Of a DNA stretch of 64,000 nt, positions 28,282-34,345 are shown in pieces. The position numbers were made by a program, and so were the translations under genes. How positions within the stretch are numbered: position 1 is the first letter of the stretch; each line of letters opens with the position of its first letter. The notes under the pieces are model-generated. The model was not told the DNA's origin and did no database searches. It saw nothing but the letters and a program-made list of their open reading frames with translations. The DNA lies in NCBI GenBank assembly GCA_963712745.1, contig CAVQJC010000020.1, positions 32,001 to 96,000 of the forward strand. Direction: 5' to 3'. The DNA is from an uncultured Chloroflexia bacterium. Its GTDB lineage: Bacteria > Chloroflexota > Limnocylindria > Limnocylindrales > CSP1-4.

Positions 28282-29529
28282 TCACTTGGCCAGCGCCAAA
28301 CCGAGCTCGGAGGCCATGAGCATGGCCGCAGCGCCGAGCTCGACAGCTTCGTCCCCGGTCCGGCCCAAGTGGATGGTGCTGCGCTCAGCAAGGAGCGGCA
28401 GCGAAGAGCGGTAAGCCTCAGCCCGCACGCTCTCGAGCCAGGCCTCGCCGTAGTCGGTCATGGGTCCGATGAGCACGATGTCGCGGGCGCCGAGCGTGCC
28501 GATCATCGTCGCCAGCACCCGCCCCAGCGGCGGGCCGGCCTCGAGCACGATCTGGTTGGCCAGCGGATCGCCGGAAGCGAATGCCAGCTGCATCGACTCG
28601 TGCGTGATGGGCTGCTCCGAAAGCGTCGAATCCGTGCGCGACGGGGCGAGATGCCGAGCACGGTCCAGCACCGCTCTTGCGCTTGCCACGGTCTCCAGGC
28701 AGCCACTACTGCCACAACGACAGTGCACCCCGTCATCGGTTACGCGCGTATGGCCGATCTCGCCCGCTCCCGAGTCATCCCCGGTGTAGACGCGCCCACC
28801 AAGAATGATCCCCGCTCCGATGCCCTCCCCGACCTTGACCACCACCATGGCTGAGGACGTGTCGTGACGGCCGAAGGCCCACTCCGCCATGGCGGCGGCC
28901 TGAGAATCGTTCACGACCACGGTGGGCAACCCTGTCAGCGAGGTCAGCCGCTCACCGACCGGCACATCGCGCCACTCGAGCCCGACGGCCCAGCGAACGG
29001 TGCCGGACGCCGTGTCGATGAGACCTGGCGTGCCCACCCCAACGCCTAGCAGCGGGCGCTCTGCTGTCCCCACAAGACCCGTCACCAGTGACTCCAGGTC
29101 AAGCATCGCCTCGACTCCATCGCGGCCCTGCAACTCGCGAGAGTGACGCACCAGCACGTCGCCATGGAGGTTGACCAGGGCCCCTCGCAGACGATGACGA
29201 TCGACATCGATGCCGAGCAAGTGCCGGGCATCTGCGGGGACGCGCAGCAGGATGGGGGCCTTGCCGCCAGTCGAGGGACCGGTGCCGACCTCGATCACAA
29301 GGTCGTCGGCAAGGAGGCGCTCGACCATATCGGAGACGGTCGTGCGAGTCAGTCCGGTGGCTCGCGCGACATCAGCGCGGCTGAGCGGCCCGCCTTCGTA
29401 GACAGTGCGCAGCACGAGCTGCTCGTTGGATCGCCGGGTCTGCCGATGGGTCGCCTTCGCAGGTGGTGCGGTGGGCACGATCTCACTTTGTAAGAGGACT
29501 GGACGAAGTGAGCATACGCTCTTTGTCAA
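28282..29529 (-). CDS. ROK-family transcriptional repressor (NagC/XylR-like)
   Basis: wHTH LSRADVARATGLTRTTVS; GIGAG..GAGEIGH..CRCG..GCLE; true start probably GTG near 29478. Confidence 0.9.
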   Translation of the reverse strand: MTKSVCSLRPVLLQSEIVPTAPPAKATHRQTRRSNEQLVLRTVYEGGPLSRADVARATGLTRTTVSDMVERLLADDLVIEVGTGPSTGGKAPILLRVPADARHLLGIDVDRHRLRGALVNLHGDVLVRHSRELQGRDGVEAMLDLESLVTGLVGTAERPLLGVGVGTPGLIDTASGTVRWAVGLEWRDVPVGERLTSLTGLPTVVVNDSQAAAMAEWAFGRHDTSSAMVVVKVGEGIGAGIILGGRVYTGDDSGAGEIGHTRVTDDGVHCRCGSSGCLETVASARAVLDRARHLAPSRTDSTLSEQPITHESMQLAFASGDPLANQIVLEAGPPLGRVLATMIGTLGARDIVLIGPMTDYGEAWLESVRAEAYRSSLPLLAERSTIHLGRTGDEAVELGAAAMLMASELGLALAK

Positions 29530-29619: not shown

Positions 29620-31593
29620 CTAGGCTGGCACCTGCGGCTCAGGGCCGATGATCATCTTCTCCGGCAGGGTCGCTCCACCCGCTCGACGGGCACCTCGAGC
29701 GGCACCGGAACGCGACCGCTTGTGGCCGTACATGGCCGCATCCGCCGACCGTAGCAGCGCCTTGCCGCTGCGGCCATCACGCGGGTGCAGGGCCAGGCCG
29801 ACCGAGCACGAGATGTGGACCTCGCTGCCATCGGCCATGGGATGACCGAGCTCGACCACGGCGGTCGCTGCGCGCTGCGCGACATGGGCAGCCTCGTCAC
29901 CGTCGGTATCGGGCATCAGCACCACGAACTCGTCGCCGCCGTAGCGAGCCACGACGTCGCTCGTCCGAACGGCTGCGCGCAGGGCCCCGGCGATAGCCCG
30001 CAAGACGCGGTCGCCTGCCTGGTGCCCGTGCTGATCATTGATGCGCTTGAAGTCGTCGAGGTCGACCATGAGCACGCTCATGGGGGAATGGGAACGCGTG
30101 GCGCGGGCCGTCTCCTGGCGGATCCGGTCCTGCAGGTGACGGTGGCTGTACACGCCCGTGACCAGGTCCGTTTCGGCCGCATCGCGCAGCTGCCGGACGA
30201 GGCGGGCGTTCTCGAGCGCCGCTGCGACCTGGTTGGCCATCGTGCGCAGCAGCGAGGTCTCGCCGTCACGGAAGTTGCGCCCGCCACTCGCGGCGATGAA
30301 CTCCACGAGTCCCGTGACGCGGCCGCCCGTGGACAGCGGCAGCAGCAGCACGGCCGCACCGCCGAGCTGATGGAGACGCGAGAGTTCGGCGGGCTCGAGC
30401 TCGTCGACACCCGAATGGAGCCAGACCGGCTCGTCATTGAGCAGCACGTGTCGCAGCGTGCGGTGGGCAGCGAGGTCCCGCTCGGGGCCGATGAGGGGTC
30501 GCCCGTCGGCGCCGATAGGCAGGAGCTTGCCGCTCTCCTCGTCCCAGCGCGAGATGAGGCAGGCATCCATGCGGGCTGCCTTGCGCAGCTTGGCGGCCAG
30601 GACGGTGGCCAGGTCGCGCTCGTCGCTGGCGCCCCCACCTGCCTGGCTGATGTCGAGCAGTGCGGCGAGCTCGCTGACGTGCGTGTCGCGCTCCGCGAGA
30701 AGGCGCGCGTTCTCGATAGCGACCGCGGCCTGGTCGGCGAGCACGCCGAGAAGCCGCAACTCGTCCTCGGAGAAGCGCTTGAGGCCGAGCCGGGAGAGCA
30801 CGACCACGCCGATGACCCGGCTTTCCGAGCGGAGGGGGGCAAGCAACATCGACTCTTCCGTCAGCTGCGCCGAGCCGGGGACCTGGACGGCCCGCGGGTC
30901 CTGGGCTGCGTCATCGATGATCAGTTGTTGGCCTGTGGCAGCGACCCAGCCCGTGATGCCCTCCCCCATGGTCACCCGCAGGCCTGCCGGTGACTCGCCG
31001 AGGTACTCGCGTGCGTGGGGCCGGAAGGCCACCGGATCGAGGGTGCGCCCGTCGTCGCGCAGGACGTAGACGCGGGCGTTGTCGAAGGCCACGACACGCT
31101 GGGTCTGCGAGCAGAGCGCCGCGCTGACCTCTTCGACGCTGGTCAGGCGGGTCAGCTGTGCGGCCACCGACTGCACGGCCTCGAGTTGGGCCGACCAGGC
31201 GATCGGACGCGGCCCCAGGCGGGTGGCGACGCGGCCGACCAGCTGGCGAGCCTGCACCCGAGCCAGGGCCAGGTCCTCGTCGGTGAAGGGCTCATCGCGA
31301 CGGCGTTCCAATACCAGCAGGCCGCCACGCTCCTCGGGCAGCGCCAGGCGCGCAACCGCACCCGGAGACTTCGCATCGCCCCGTGCCGTCGGCAGCCAGC
31401 GTCGCAGCAGCCCTCCTTCTTCCGCCTGGCTCGCGCTGTCGGCCTGTCCCTCCGAGAGGGCCTCGCCGTCGCGCACCGAGGCCACCAGGTCGAGTACGCC
31501 GTCGCCGCGATCGAGATAGAGACTGGCCCCCCGGTCAGCCTCGACCGCGATGGCCAGGTGCTTGAGCGCGGTGGCGACTTCCCGGCTGAGCAT
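29620..31593 (-). CDS. Multi-GAF diguanylate cyclase
   Basis: GAF ends LADQAAVAIENARL and MANQVAAALENARL; TDLVTG, DLDDFKRINDQHGHQAGD, RTSD I-site and RYGGDEF; no TM segment seen. Confidence 0.92.
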   Translation of the reverse strand: MLSREVATALKHLAIAVEADRGASLYLDRGDGVLDLVASVRDGEALSEGQADSASQAEEGGLLRRWLPTARGDAKSPGAVARLALPEERGGLLVLERRRDEPFTDEDLALARVQARQLVGRVATRLGPRPIAWSAQLEAVQSVAAQLTRLTSVEEVSAALCSQTQRVVAFDNARVYVLRDDGRTLDPVAFRPHAREYLGESPAGLRVTMGEGITGWVAATGQQLIIDDAAQDPRAVQVPGSAQLTEESMLLAPLRSESRVIGVVVLSRLGLKRFSEDELRLLGVLADQAAVAIENARLLAERDTHVSELAALLDISQAGGGASDERDLATVLAAKLRKAARMDACLISRWDEESGKLLPIGADGRPLIGPERDLAAHRTLRHVLLNDEPVWLHSGVDELEPAELSRLHQLGGAAVLLLPLSTGGRVTGLVEFIAASGGRNFRDGETSLLRTMANQVAAALENARLVRQLRDAAETDLVTGVYSHRHLQDRIRQETARATRSHSPMSVLMVDLDDFKRINDQHGHQAGDRVLRAIAGALRAAVRTSDVVARYGGDEFVVLMPDTDGDEAAHVAQRAATAVVELGHPMADGSEVHISCSVGLALHPRDGRSGKALLRSADAAMYGHKRSRSGAARGARRAGGATLPEKMIIGPEPQVPA

Positions 31594-31598
31594 GACCG

Positions 31599-32183
31599 TC
31601 AGTGCCCGAACGGCTGGGGCGACGTGGCCGCCACGGCCGTGGCGGCGACGTCGGGCCGACGCATGGCGCTAACCAGGAAGACGATGGCACCGAGGGCGAT
31701 GAGCGCGTCGCCTACCGAGAAGGCGGTCGCCATGGGCAGCGGCGGAGGAAAGACGAAGATGTCACCGAGGAAGGGGAAGAGCGTGGCCGGCCCGATGAGG
31801 GCCACGTTGGTGTAGTGGTCGACCGGCAGGGCCGCACTCCCGGTGAGTTGGATCCAGGCTTCGGGGGACGAGGGCATGTAGCCACCGTTGGCCAGCACGG
31901 CCACGAGGTTCAGTCCGGCGCCGAGGCCAAGGATGCCCATGCCCGGCAGGCGCAGATTGCGCAGGAGCGCGGCCAGCACCATCAGCGTCGAGGGCACGTA
32001 CAGGAGGGGTCCGCCAGCCCCGACCAGCTCCGCGACCGGACGAGCGAAGAGCAGGAGTTGTATGAGTAGCCCCGCGACCGCCAGTTGCCACCACACGAGA
32101 TGGACGCGCTCGAGGTTGCGGACCCGTCCACCCATCAGCCGACCGAGCAGCAGGCCGGCGGCGATGGCATAGAGCAGCAGCAT
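31599..32183 (-). CDS. DUF5317-family membrane protein (candidate aspartyl intramembrane peptidase)
   Basis: GGRVRNL..W; G..LN...VLANGGYMP; LGDIF..FSVGD..IALG; about 5 TMs; GGAGG upstream of ATG 32183. Confidence 0.85.
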   Translation of the reverse strand: MLLLYAIAAGLLLGRLMGGRVRNLERVHLVWWQLAVAGLLIQLLLFARPVAELVGAGGPLLYVPSTLMVLAALLRNLRLPGMGILGLGAGLNLVAVLANGGYMPSSPEAWIQLTGSAALPVDHYTNVALIGPATLFPFLGDIFVFPPPLPMATAFSVGDALIALGAIVFLVSAMRRPDVAATAVAATSPQPFGH

Positions 32184-32322
32184 CGAGTCGCGGGGCCTCC
32201 CTATGCAAGACGCCGGCGCTGACGGCGCCGGCGAGGATGTCACTCGGTATCGCGCATGTGGGGTGGGATGGGACCGGCGAACGGCGCGAGGGTGGGCGTC
32301 GCCGGCCCCGTGAGTTTGTCGT

Positions 32323-32409
32323 CTACCACCAGCGGATGGGCGCCGCCAGCACGAGCACGAACGCAGCGACCGCAGCGAGGCGGAGTGCGAGATCCTTGTA
32401 ACGGCTCAT
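32323..32409 (-). CDS. 28-aa signal-peptide-like precursor MSRYKDLALRLAAVAAFVLVLAAPIRWW
   Basis: GGGAG RBS 9 nt before ATG 32409; basic n-region, hydrophobic h-region, short WW-terminated tail; first gene of the DUF5317-GGDEF unit. Confidence 0.75.
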   Translation of the reverse strand: MSRYKDLALRLAAVAAFVLVLAAPIRWW

Positions 32410-32659
32410 CCTGTGTATCTCCCAGTGAGTCGGGCCTGGGCCCTGGGTCCGCGAGTGCTCGGGTCTCGGTCGAGGGAGGTGGCTCCCTGACGCCTCAGAT
32501 ACTCGCGGCCACGGGTAACACCCTCCATGGCGAAGTCGTACTAGGACCGGGTTTGACGGCGCGCACCAGTCCCGACCGCCCAGCACCGGCAACGACCTCA
32601 CCCCACGGGAGCGCAAGTGCCGCCGGGAGACCGGCGCCGGCAGCCCGTATGCTCCAGTC

Positions 32660-33238
32660 ATGACCGACGACCACCTCAGAGAGACCAGCGTGGAGCGGCG
32701 CCTGCTTCACCGGGGCCGATTCATCAACTTCCGCATCGACACCATCGAGGACCCACAGGGCAAGCGCCACACGCGCGAGGTCGTGGAGCACCCCGGCGCC
32801 ATCTGCGTCATCCCCATCCACGGCGAGGAGGTGCTGATGGTGCGGCAATGGCGCACGCCCGTGGCCAAGGTCGTGCTCGAGCTGCCGGCAGGGACGCTCG
32901 ATCGCATGCCCGACGGGTCCGTGGAGGACCCCGACGATGCGGCTCCGCGCGAGCTCGCGGAGGAGACCGGCTTCCGAGCCGGCTCCTGGCGCAAGCTCGG
33001 GCGTTTCTGGACTGCACCGGGTTTCACCGAGGAGCAGATGCACCTGTACCTTGCCACCGACCTCTGGCCGCTCGAGGACTACCGCGGTCCCGATGTCGAC
33101 GAGTACCTCGACCTCGTGCGGCTGCCCTGGCAGGAGGCGGTAGCGATGGCGGCGCGCGGCGAGGTCGAGGACGCCAAGACGCTGGTCGGCCTGCTCTGGC
33201 TGGGCCGGCTGGCCGACGCGGGCGAGCTACCCGGGTAG
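32660..33238 (+). CDS. nudF: NUDIX hydrolase, ADP-ribose pyrophosphatase type
   Basis: REVVEHPGA, ELPAG..RELAEETG Nudix box, APGF..E, EDAKT. Confidence 0.85.
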   Translation: MTDDHLRETSVERRLLHRGRFINFRIDTIEDPQGKRHTREVVEHPGAICVIPIHGEEVLMVRQWRTPVAKVVLELPAGTLDRMPDGSVEDPDDAAPRELAEETGFRAGSWRKLGRFWTAPGFTEEQMHLYLATDLWPLEDYRGPDVDEYLDLVRLPWQEAVAMAARGEVEDAKTLVGLLWLGRLADAGELPG

Positions 33239-34345
33239 CCACTCCCTGAGATCGATGGGCGAGAGACGCGGGCTGGACGTGACGCCCGGGATACGACCGC
33301 GTTTGGCGATCGGCCGTCCGTCGATCTCCTTGAGGTCCCCGGTGAAGTCGATGGGCGAGGCCCCGCTGATGTAGCTGCCGACGGCGAAGAAGTCGACCGG
33401 GGCACCGGCATCCTTGAAGTACCGGATGCGGTCGGGCGTGAGGCCGCCCGAGACGATGACCTTGACCTGTTCGAAGCCGTCGAGGTCGAGCCGGGCCCGA
33501 ACCTCCATGACCAGGTCGGCCGTCACCCGCCCCCGCTCCGAGGGCGTGTCGAGGCGGACGCCGTAGAGCCGCTCACCCAGCGCGTGCGCCACGCGCAGCG
33601 ATTCTTCGGCCTCGTCCTTGAAGGTATCGACGAGGACGATGCGCGGCACGTCCGGCGCCACATGGCGGTCGAAGGCCTCCGCGGCATGGACCGTGTCGCC
33701 GATGACGAGCACGAGCGAGTGCGGCATCGTGCCCGTGGGGGCCAGCCCGGCCAGGCGCGCACCGGCCGGCGTGGAGGCACCCACACAGCCACCCACGATG
33801 GCTGCGTAGTCAAGCGCGTCGGTGATGTGGGGGTGGACGTGACGTGCGCCGAAGCTGATGACCGGCTGGGGCGCGGCTGCGGCCACGCATTCGCGGGCCG
33901 CGTTGGCCCAGCCCGTGGACTGGGCGAGCATGCCCAGGATGGCCGTCTCGTACAGCCCGAACGCACGGTAGCGCGCACGGATGCGCATGACGATCTCCTT
34001 GGCCGAGAACTCGTCCCCATCCGAAAGCGACTCGACCACGTATTCCTCGTCACTCTCGGCGAACACGGAGGCCAGCAGGACCTTGGCCTCGTCGATGCCG
34101 CAGAGGATCCCCTCCGAACGCGAGAAGACCTCCATGACCACGACCGGGTCCAGGCCCTCGCCCTCGAGGATCTCCTCGGCACGCCGGAAGTAGACGTCAG
34201 CCGACTCCCCGCTCAGCACGTCGTGGGAGGGCCGGCGGCGTTCTCGTGTCACTCGGTCCATCAGGTGCGCAAGTGTAGCGACTGGGGCTATCGCTGGCTC
34301 CGGGTTCCACCGTGCATCGACTGGCATCCCGCGCTCTTGAGCCAC
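33227..34345 (-). CDS. pncB: Nicotinate phosphoribosyltransferase (short type)
   Basis: ADVYF, SFGARH, GTMPHS, LVDTF, GVRLDTP, VSGG, AKRG; start uncertain. Confidence 0.85.
   Translation of the reverse strand: MAQERGMPVDARWNPEPAIAPVATLAHLMDRVTRERRRPSHDVLSGESADVYFRRAEEILEGEGLDPVVVMEVFSRSEGILCGIDEAKVLLASVFAESDEEYVVESLSDGDEFSAKEIVMRIRARYRAFGLYETAILGMLAQSTGWANAARECVAAAAPQPVISFGARHVHPHITDALDYAAIVGGCVGASTPAGARLAGLAPTGTMPHSLVLVIGDTVHAAEAFDRHVAPDVPRIVLVDTFKDEAEESLRVAHALGERLYGVRLDTPSERGRVTADLVMEVRARLDLDGFEQVKVIVSGGLTPDRIRYFKDAGAPVDFFAVGSYISGASPIDFTGDLKEIDGRPIAKRGRIPGVTSSPRLSPIDLREWLPG

What the first reader, a model, noticed from the sequence alone, without database searches (positions are those of the whole stretch)
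31599..32183. DUF5317 protein carries a signal peptidase II (LspA)-like aspartate pair
Seen: GAGLN..(NGGYMP)..LGDIF-VFPPPLPMATA-FSVGD-ALIALG, with two Asp 18 residues apart. Established: LspA (peptidase A8) has GA.GN..D, V.DF and FN.AD..I..G, with the catalytic Asps about 19 residues apart. Inference: DUF5317 is an LspA-fold aspartyl peptidase acting on a Cys-less, lipobox-like LAA-P site, which would give a function to a DUF.
Basis: partly seen in the sequence, partly recalled or inferred. Interest (0 to 1): 0.8.

Follow-up and report, generated by a model that had tools for sequence, protein, structure and literature searches.

The report
DUF5317 membrane protein, LspA-like aspartate pair
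A small five-helix membrane protein of unknown function carries two never-changing aspartates laid out much like the active site of lipoprotein signal peptidase, and is genetically tied to an enzyme that makes the signalling molecule c-di-GMP.

Summary
Window 31599..32183 (-) encodes a 194-aa DUF5317 protein (Pfam E 6e-25) containing GAGLN, NGGYMP, LGD(141)IF and FSVGD(159)ALIALG. In 85 diverse relatives N76, G88, N92, N99, G101, M103, P104, D141, S156, G158 and D159 are invariant.

Its partner is better supported. The gene sits 5 nt upstream of a GAF-GGDEF diguanylate cyclase. That pairing recurs in 28 of 80 related loci, and natural DUF5317-GAF-GGDEF, DUF5317-PAS-GAF-GGDEF and DUF5317-MFS fusions exist. 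HD-GYP genes are adjacent in 13 of 30 other loci. My best reading is an outer-leaflet Asp-dyad membrane module that feeds c-di-GMP enzymes.

The parts
31599..32183 (-). DUF5317 gene, 194 aa plus stop. The model gives five TM helices (2-16, 32-45, 48-74, 82-98, 157-174) and a 58-residue extracytoplasmic loop (99-156).
   Evidence: Pfam E 6.3e-25; AF2 model pLDDT 94.2, pTM 0.87; K+R counts by loop
31908..31922 (-). G88-A-G-L-N92 on TM4. G88 and N92 are invariant. Proposed counterpart of LspA G-x-x-x-N (G102/N106 in S. aureus).
   Evidence: LspA residues from PMC6952399. The equivalence is inferred from spacing and helix order, not from a residue-level superposition.
31872..31889 (-). N99-G-G-Y-M-P104, the family signature at the start of the extracytoplasmic loop. 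N99, G101, M103 and P104 are invariant. No LspA counterpart.
31755..31769 (-). L139-G-D141-I-F, with the first invariant Asp in a beta-bridge or hairpin just before TM5. Resembles LspA V-x-D-F.
31689..31721 (-). F155-S-V-G-D159-A-L-I-A-L-G165, with the second invariant Asp in the first turn of TM5. Resembles LspA F-N-x-A-D-x-x-I-x-x-G.
32196..32201 (-). GGGAGG ribosome-binding site, 12 nt upstream of the ATG at 32183
   Evidence: read directly
29620..31593 (-). Downstream partner gene, 657 aa: a conserved N-terminal region, GAF domains and a GGDEF diguanylate cyclase. GGDEF and the RxxD I-site are invariant in 25 orthologues. Its ATG lies 5 nt after the DUF5317 stop (TGA CGGTC ATG).
   Evidence: conserved synteny; natural fusions

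Best explanation
The gene encodes a five-TM inner-membrane protein with N-terminus out and C-terminus in. Its last helices and a small extracytoplasmic beta/helix loop build a polar site at the outer-leaflet face. The site centres on two invariant aspartates (D141 on a short strand, D159 in the first turn of TM5), supported by invariant N76, N92, N99 and S156. This site is laid out like the catalytic dyad of lipoprotein signal peptidase LspA: G-x-x-x-N on the preceding helix, [V/L]-x-D-[F/I] on a strand, then F-[N/S]-x-[A/G]-D-x-x-I-x-x-G opening the last helix. The protein lacks LspA's lipoprotein-recognition residues and the usual position of the beta-cradle. I read it as a very remote LspA-like Asp-dyad module, either a hydrolase or a binder of a membrane-inserted peptide or lipopeptide. 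It is not a lipoprotein signal peptidase. It works together with the co-transcribed cytoplasmic GAF-GGDEF cyclase as that enzyme's membrane-embedded input or anchor, with the state of the outer-leaflet site relayed through TM5 and the cytoplasmic C-terminal helix. What is shown: family membership, invariance, confident fold, topology indicators, operon and fusions. What is inferred: LspA-like geometry (about even odds), catalysis (about 0.3), and signal relay to the cyclase.
Confidence: 0.45

Rival explanations
1. DUF5317 is unrelated to LspA. It is a membrane input or anchor module of c-di-GMP enzymes, comparable in role to MASE-type domains. Its Asp/Asn/Ser cluster binds a cation, proton or small ligand at the outer membrane face. 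The LspA resemblance is a short convergent motif on a generic helical bundle.
Against: Most members are stand-alone proteins of about 190 aa, and 38 of 80 related loci have no c-di-GMP gene within 4 kb. Strict invariance of 11 residues across contexts, including MFS fusions, is unusual for a sensor domain. LspA chains are still the tightest long structural matches, with the highest identity in two models.
Confidence: 0.35
2. One reading: DUF5317 is an active LspA-type signal peptidase that removes signal peptides at a Cys-less, lipobox-like site.
For: Same motif and topology arguments as the best explanation.
Against: No candidate substrate was seen in the window or in conserved neighbours. 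The residues LspA uses for lipoprotein recognition have no counterpart (list from PMC6952399). Canonical LspA is present in the same genome between ileS-like and RluD-like genes and in 60 of 61 phylum genomes. DUF5317 is found in only 64 of 201, so it is not a housekeeping peptidase.
Confidence: 0.07
3. DUF5317 is an accessory or gating subunit of MFS transporters. The polar cluster forms part of a substrate or ion path.
For: DUF5317-MFS and MFS-DUF5317 fusions: P0193, P0200, P0254, P0152, P0223 and the genome's own paralogue L003. MFS is adjacent or fused in 4 of 30 loci. Many frames of 620-750 aa appear in the sister class.
Against: The window's copy and its orthologues are paired with a cytoplasmic cyclase, not with a transporter. 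Five helices with a single polar cluster at one membrane face do not form an obvious through-path.
Confidence: 0.1
4. DUF5317 is a GxGD-type intramembrane aspartyl protease of the presenilin or prepilin-peptidase kind, suggested by L-G-D and S-x-G-D.
For: Two x-G-D motifs in or next to membrane helices. One SPPL2a chain topped the Foldseek list for model 2, but at E 2.4, TM 0.22 and rmsd 17 A, which is noise.
Against: hhalign against 30 prepilin-peptidase (PF01478) sequences gave score 14.2, P 0.23, 1 aligned column. No A22 or A24 chain appears among the 50 rows of either VIA list. The helix count and the 18-residue spacing do not fit.
Confidence: 0.03

Closest known systems
Lipoprotein signal peptidase LspA (MEROPS A8, Pfam PF01252; PDB 5DIR, 6RYP)
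   Same: A small membrane protein with an Asp pair 18-19 residues apart at the extracytoplasmic membrane face. The first Asp sits on a strand after the third core helix and the second in the first turn of the last helix. Shared motifs are G-x-x-x-N, [V/L]-x-D-[F/I] and F-[N/S]-x-[A/G]-D-x-x-I-x-x-G. The last three helices have the same in/out topology. LspA gives the best long structural matches.
   Different: There is no PF01252 match. DUF5317 has five helices, not four. There is no beta-cradle between the first two core helices; instead a 58-residue loop lies between the last two. LspA's D/K (H1), N-x-G (cradle) and D-R after G-N have no counterpart, while DUF5317 has its own invariant N76 and N-G-G-x-M-P. 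It is not next to ileS. It is patchily distributed, and it is linked or fused to GGDEF, HD-GYP and MFS.
Membrane-integral input domains of c-di-GMP enzymes (MASE-type domains; the family name is recalled, and MASE9 appeared weakly in a neighbour)
   Same: A polytopic N-terminal membrane module fused to, or operonic with, GGDEF and HD-GYP proteins.
   Different: DUF5317 is mostly a stand-alone protein, is also fused to MFS transporters, and has an enzyme-like set of 11 invariant residues.
GxGD intramembrane aspartyl proteases (presenilin/SPP A22, prepilin peptidase A24)
   Same: Two membrane-embedded Asp, one of them in an x-G-D context.
   Different: No profile similarity. Helix number, motif spacing and location differ.
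Mini LspA-like proteins of about 115-125 aa found in passing (L064-L066)
   Same: They show that divergent LspA relatives exist in the same phylum.
   Different: They are clearly LspA homologues (hhalign 96%) and show no similarity to DUF5317 (0.3%). They do not bridge the two families.

Membership tests
DUF5317 (PF17248) | Match to the Pfam model above its gathering score (25 bits) | tested here: met
   88.4 bits, E 6.3e-25, profile positions 2-150 of 151
LspA / peptidase A8 (PF01252) | Match to the family profile | tested here: not met
   No PF01252 hit at E <= 1. A phylum LspA HMM gives at most 8.9 bits on any of 85 DUF5317 sequences. hhalign probability is 12% and 2%.
LspA / peptidase A8 | Two conserved catalytic Asp about 18-19 apart at the outer membrane face, the second opening the last TM helix | tested here: met
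   D141/D159 are invariant and 18 apart. Their positions come from the model secondary structure. The outside location is supported by charge counts and fusions. Catalysis itself is not testable here.
LspA / peptidase A8 | The 14 highly conserved residues listed for LspA (PMC6952399) | tested here: not met
   By motif position, 5 are identical (G, N, D, F, D) and 3 similar (V/L, N/S, A/G). D21, K25, N52, G54, D109 and R110 have no conserved counterpart. The equivalences are inferred, not taken from a residue-level superposition.
LspA / peptidase A8 | Four-helix fold with a beta-cradle, superposable on solved LspA | tested here: inconclusive
LspA / peptidase A8 | Cleaves diacylglyceryl-prolipoproteins at a lipobox; inhibited by globomycin | not testable with these tools
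   Needs biochemistry
GxGD aspartyl proteases (A22/A24) | Profile similarity to prepilin peptidase (PF01478) | tested here: not met
   hhalign score 14.2, P 0.23, 1 column, against 30 phylum sequences
Membrane input module of c-di-GMP enzymes (functional class, not a sequence family) | Recurrent fusion or operon with GGDEF or HD-GYP domains | tested here: met
   Fusions P0123, P0237 and L244. GGDEF within about 1.5 kb on the same strand in 40 of 80 loci. HD-GYP adjacent in 13 of 30 loci.

The most novel reading that the evidence does not exclude
DUF5317 is a new family of outer-leaflet intramembrane aspartyl peptidases, sharing LspA's catalytic architecture but with a different substrate cradle. 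Substrate binding or cleavage would directly control c-di-GMP synthesis (GAF-GGDEF partners and fusions), c-di-GMP degradation (HD-GYP partners) or export (MFS fusions). That would be a proteolysis-to-second-messenger link inside one operon or one polypeptide.
Probability: 0.25. Interest if true: 0.8.

Novelty: new variant of a known kind. Interest (0 to 1): 0.55.

Why it matters
DUF5317 is a large family with no assigned function. The representative library holds 2,521 clusters at E <= 0.001, and the family is found in 64 of 201 genomes of this phylum and in the Thermus and Thermotoga control genomes. I found no paper that mentions it. If the invariant Asp pair is an LspA-like dyad, the only known bacterial A8-type architecture gains a second, differently wired family. 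The input signal of a widespread set of diguanylate cyclases and HD-GYP phosphodiesterases would then become testable with two point mutants. Even if the LspA link fails, the conserved DUF5317 to GAF-GGDEF operon and the natural fusions give this DUF a concrete functional context.

Tried and rejected
Sequence searches against solved structures gave nothing relevant. phmmer returned 3 unrelated rows at E 0.22-1.2. A profile of A1 returned 2 light-harvesting peptides at E 0.18. NCBIfam returned 0 families.

The ESM Atlas gave no usable hit and holds no model, tried for P0001 and for P0029.

Weak PF01252 hits in three other genomes were checked as possible bridges between LspA and DUF5317. They are mini-LspA proteins, clearly LspA-like and not DUF5317-like. 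The bridge idea was rejected.

I considered a c-di-GMP or other riboswitch in the 476-nt region upstream (32184..32659). Rfam gave only two chance-level viral-element rows at E 0.26 and 0.9.

Complex prediction was run with DUF5317 (A1) and residues 1-300 of the GAF-GGDEF protein (A4). The verdict was 'no answer' (score 0.00), with controls not run. It counts neither for nor against binding.

Clustering neighbours of the 38 'no c-di-GMP gene' loci failed, because spurious high-GC frames merged into one component. In one example, L231, the neighbours are a weak DinB_2-like gene, proline dehydrogenase and P5C reductase, with no shared theme.

The GxGD-protease idea was rejected.

Supplementary figures of PMC6952399, which map the conserved residues, could not be seen. 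The 14-residue list comes from the main text.

Full report
WHAT IS THERE.

Window 31599..32183 on the minus strand is a 194-aa ORF. A GGGAGG lies 12 nt upstream of its ATG. A longer GTG-started reading of 214 aa exists, but 194 aa is the commonest length among the 120 listed relatives.

The protein matches Pfam DUF5317 (PF17248) at E 6.3e-25 and matches nothing else at E <= 1. NCBIfam has no model for it.

CONSERVATION.

A full scan of 1.84 billion representatives found 2,521 relatives at E <= 0.001. I aligned 85 full-length ones, 29-51% identical to the query. Eleven columns are invariant: N76, G88, N92, N99, G101, M103, P104, D141, S156, G158 and D159. G165 is among nine more columns at >=90%.

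In 153 sequences aligned to the family HMM, D159 is never substituted (126 D, 27 gaps in fragments). D141 is D in 130, R in 1 and a gap in 22. All nine fused forms I checked keep the whole motif set.

This degree of invariance, regardless of context, is what one expects of an active site or an essential binding site.

FOLD AND TOPOLOGY.

AF2 with this alignment gave pLDDT 94.2 and pTM 0.87. Helices are at 2-16, 21-26, 32-45, 48-74, 82-98, 157-174 and 179-187. The stretch 99-156 holds short strands (103-105, 127-129, 141, 143-144, 154-155) and a helix (107-114).

A second model was made for a relative 29% identical to the query (P0189, pLDDT 94.5). It shows the same pattern.

Lys+Arg counts are 3, 2 and 2 in loops 17-31, 75-81 and the C-terminus, against 1 in the 46-50 turn and 0 in the 58-residue loop 99-156. 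C-terminal fusions to cytoplasmic domains exist. Together these indicate N-terminus out, C-terminus in, and the 99-156 loop and both Asp at the extracytoplasmic face.

In both models the first Asp is a beta-bridge residue at the base of a hairpin that runs straight into the last helix, and the second Asp lies in that helix's first turn. I infer from this that the two Asp are neighbours in space.

IS IT LspA-LIKE?

Evidence for:

(b) Register. The alignment end 174=158 places D159 on P. aeruginosa D143 if the helix is ungapped. For 6ryp, 187=163 places D159 within one residue of D136. The catalytic residue numbers come from passages of PMC8048626 and PMC6952399.

(c) Profile comparison. I built an LspA alignment from 32 phylum loci plus the genome's own LspA (L057 left out). 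hhalign of DUF5317 against it gave one local alignment of 59 columns, score 25.8, P 0.0024. It pairs D141 with the V-V-D-F Asp and D159 with the F-N-x-A-D Asp.

(d) Controls. The reversed profile scored 12.7. Column shuffles reached the real score in 1 of 100, and blocks of 5 in 1 of 100. Four real membrane families from the same phylum (prepilin peptidase, rhomboid, CPBP, PAP2) scored 11.8-16.4 against DUF5317.

(e) HMM scan. The LspA HMM scores >=5 bits on 7 of 85 real DUF5317 sequences, 0 of 85 reversed and 1 of 425 shuffled, mostly on the C-terminal motif.

Evidence against:

- Foldseek found nothing at E <= 0.001 for either model.
- hhalign probability is 12%. With a 12-sequence DUF5317 alignment the tool's own hhalign gave 2%, P 0.025, and aligned only the second motif.
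- Blocks of 10 reach the real score in 9 of 100 shuffles, so one short motif carries most of the score.
- As a positive control, mini LspA-like proteins of about 115-125 aa found in three other genomes score 96% against LspA but 0.3% against DUF5317.
- Of the 14 highly conserved LspA residues (PMC6952399), about 5 have identical and 3 similar counterparts by motif position. D21, K25, N52, G54, D109 and R110 have none.
- DUF5317 has a tight turn where LspA has its beta-cradle.
The structural register is the only partly independent line.

My estimate is roughly even odds that the dyad architecture is truly LspA-like, whether by remote homology or convergence. The protein is clearly not a member of family A8.

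The genome has a canonical lspA (PF01252, E 1e-31) between an ileS-like and an RluD-like gene. LspA is found in 60 of 61 phylum genomes searched (this tally includes the unpublished G038). DUF5317 is found in 64 of 201. It therefore does not replace LspA.

WHAT IT WORKS WITH.

The stop of DUF5317 is followed after 5 nt by the ATG of a 657-aa GAF-GGDEF protein. In 25 orthologues the GGDEF motif (G552-F556) and an RxxD site five residues upstream (R543, D546) are invariant, which fits an active, product-inhibited cyclase.

In 80 related Chloroflexota loci, counted:
- 28 have GAF-GGDEF directly downstream on the same strand, one of them in the same frame as DUF5317 (L244).
- 1 more shows the GAF domain at a contig end.
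- 12 have a GGDEF gene about 0.9 kb upstream on the same strand.
- 1 has GGDEF on the opposite strand.
- 38 show none of my four query domains within 4 kb.

Representatives include DUF5317-GAF-GGDEF (P0123, 54% identical over the DUF5317 part) and DUF5317-PAS-GAF-GGDEF (P0237). They also include DUF5317-MFS and MFS-DUF5317 fusions.

In 30 more distant loci of the phylum:
- 13 have an adjacent HD-GYP gene (12 on the same strand, 1 a GGDEF-HD-GYP on the opposite strand).
- 4 have an adjacent or fused MFS.
- 14 show none within the 1.5-kb flanks.

The genome's own second copy is fused to an MFS transporter and preceded by an HD-GYP gene.

The link to c-di-GMP turnover is therefore well supported for a large part of the family. 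Physical binding was not shown.

MECHANISM I COMMIT TO.

I read the protein as an outer-leaflet, LspA-like Asp-dyad site in a five-TM protein. The site binds, and perhaps hydrolyses, a membrane-inserted peptide or lipopeptide. The protein serves as the membrane input or anchor of the co-transcribed cyclase, and of HD-GYP enzymes or MFS transporters in other members.

My confidence is 0.45 for the whole statement, about 0.85 for the c-di-GMP partnership alone, and about 0.3 for actual catalysis. The main rival (0.35) is an unrelated sensor or ion-binding module whose LspA resemblance is convergent.

No candidate substrate appears in the window or among conserved neighbours.

NOVELTY.

No paper in the searched library mentions DUF5317 or PF17248. 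If the reading holds, this is a new variant of a known kind: a second family with A8-like architecture, wired to second-messenger signalling.

Noticed in passing
L064:1305-1877 (+), L065:1387-1761 (+), L066:1466-1864 (+): Three genomes of one family in this phylum encode mini LspA-like proteins of about 115-125 aa. They keep D..TK, G..CGN, GYATDW and TNVAD but lack most of the beta-cradle. hhalign to LspA is 96%. They fall below the Pfam cut-off (20.7-23.9 bits) and occur alongside normal LspA copies.
   Followed up: partly
L003:1423-3414 (+) and L003:572-1333 (+) (own genome, contig C6): A second DUF5317 copy in the same genome is fused N-terminally to an MFS transporter (663 aa). It is preceded on the same strand by an HD-GYP (HD_5) protein.
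   Followed up: partly
L205, L216, L224, L240: Some related loci carry two DUF5317 genes close together on one strand (138-602 nt apart in L205, L216 and L240; about 2.8 kb apart in L224, with a GAF-GGDEF gene between the two copies). In L205, L216 and L224 a GGDEF gene lies next to them. In the 12 loci with GGDEF upstream, about 0.9 kb of unassigned sequence lies between the GGDEF domain and DUF5317.
   Followed up: no
window 32184..32659: There is a 476-nt gap between the DUF5317 start and the divergent NUDIX gene (32660..33238, +). No Rfam family matches it beyond chance. It is long for a promoter region.
   Followed up: partly
window 29620..31593 (-), residues 1-150 of the GAF-GGDEF protein: The N-terminal 150 residues have no Pfam domain but are conserved among 25 orthologues (invariant A19, G22, R97, F103, D107, R116, W133). 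This may be a degenerate GAF domain or the docking region for DUF5317.
   Followed up: no
window 28282..29529 (-), 32660..33238 (+), 33227..34345 (-): The flanking genes are a ROK-family regulator with an HTH, a NUDIX hydrolase, and a nicotinate/quinolinate phosphoribosyltransferase-like gene. None shows an evident link to DUF5317.
   Followed up: partly
L004:2062-3381 (-): The HD-GYP partner upstream of a DUF5317 gene has a weak MASE9-like membrane region (E 7.6e-4, below cut-off). Some partners are therefore themselves membrane proteins.
   Followed up: no
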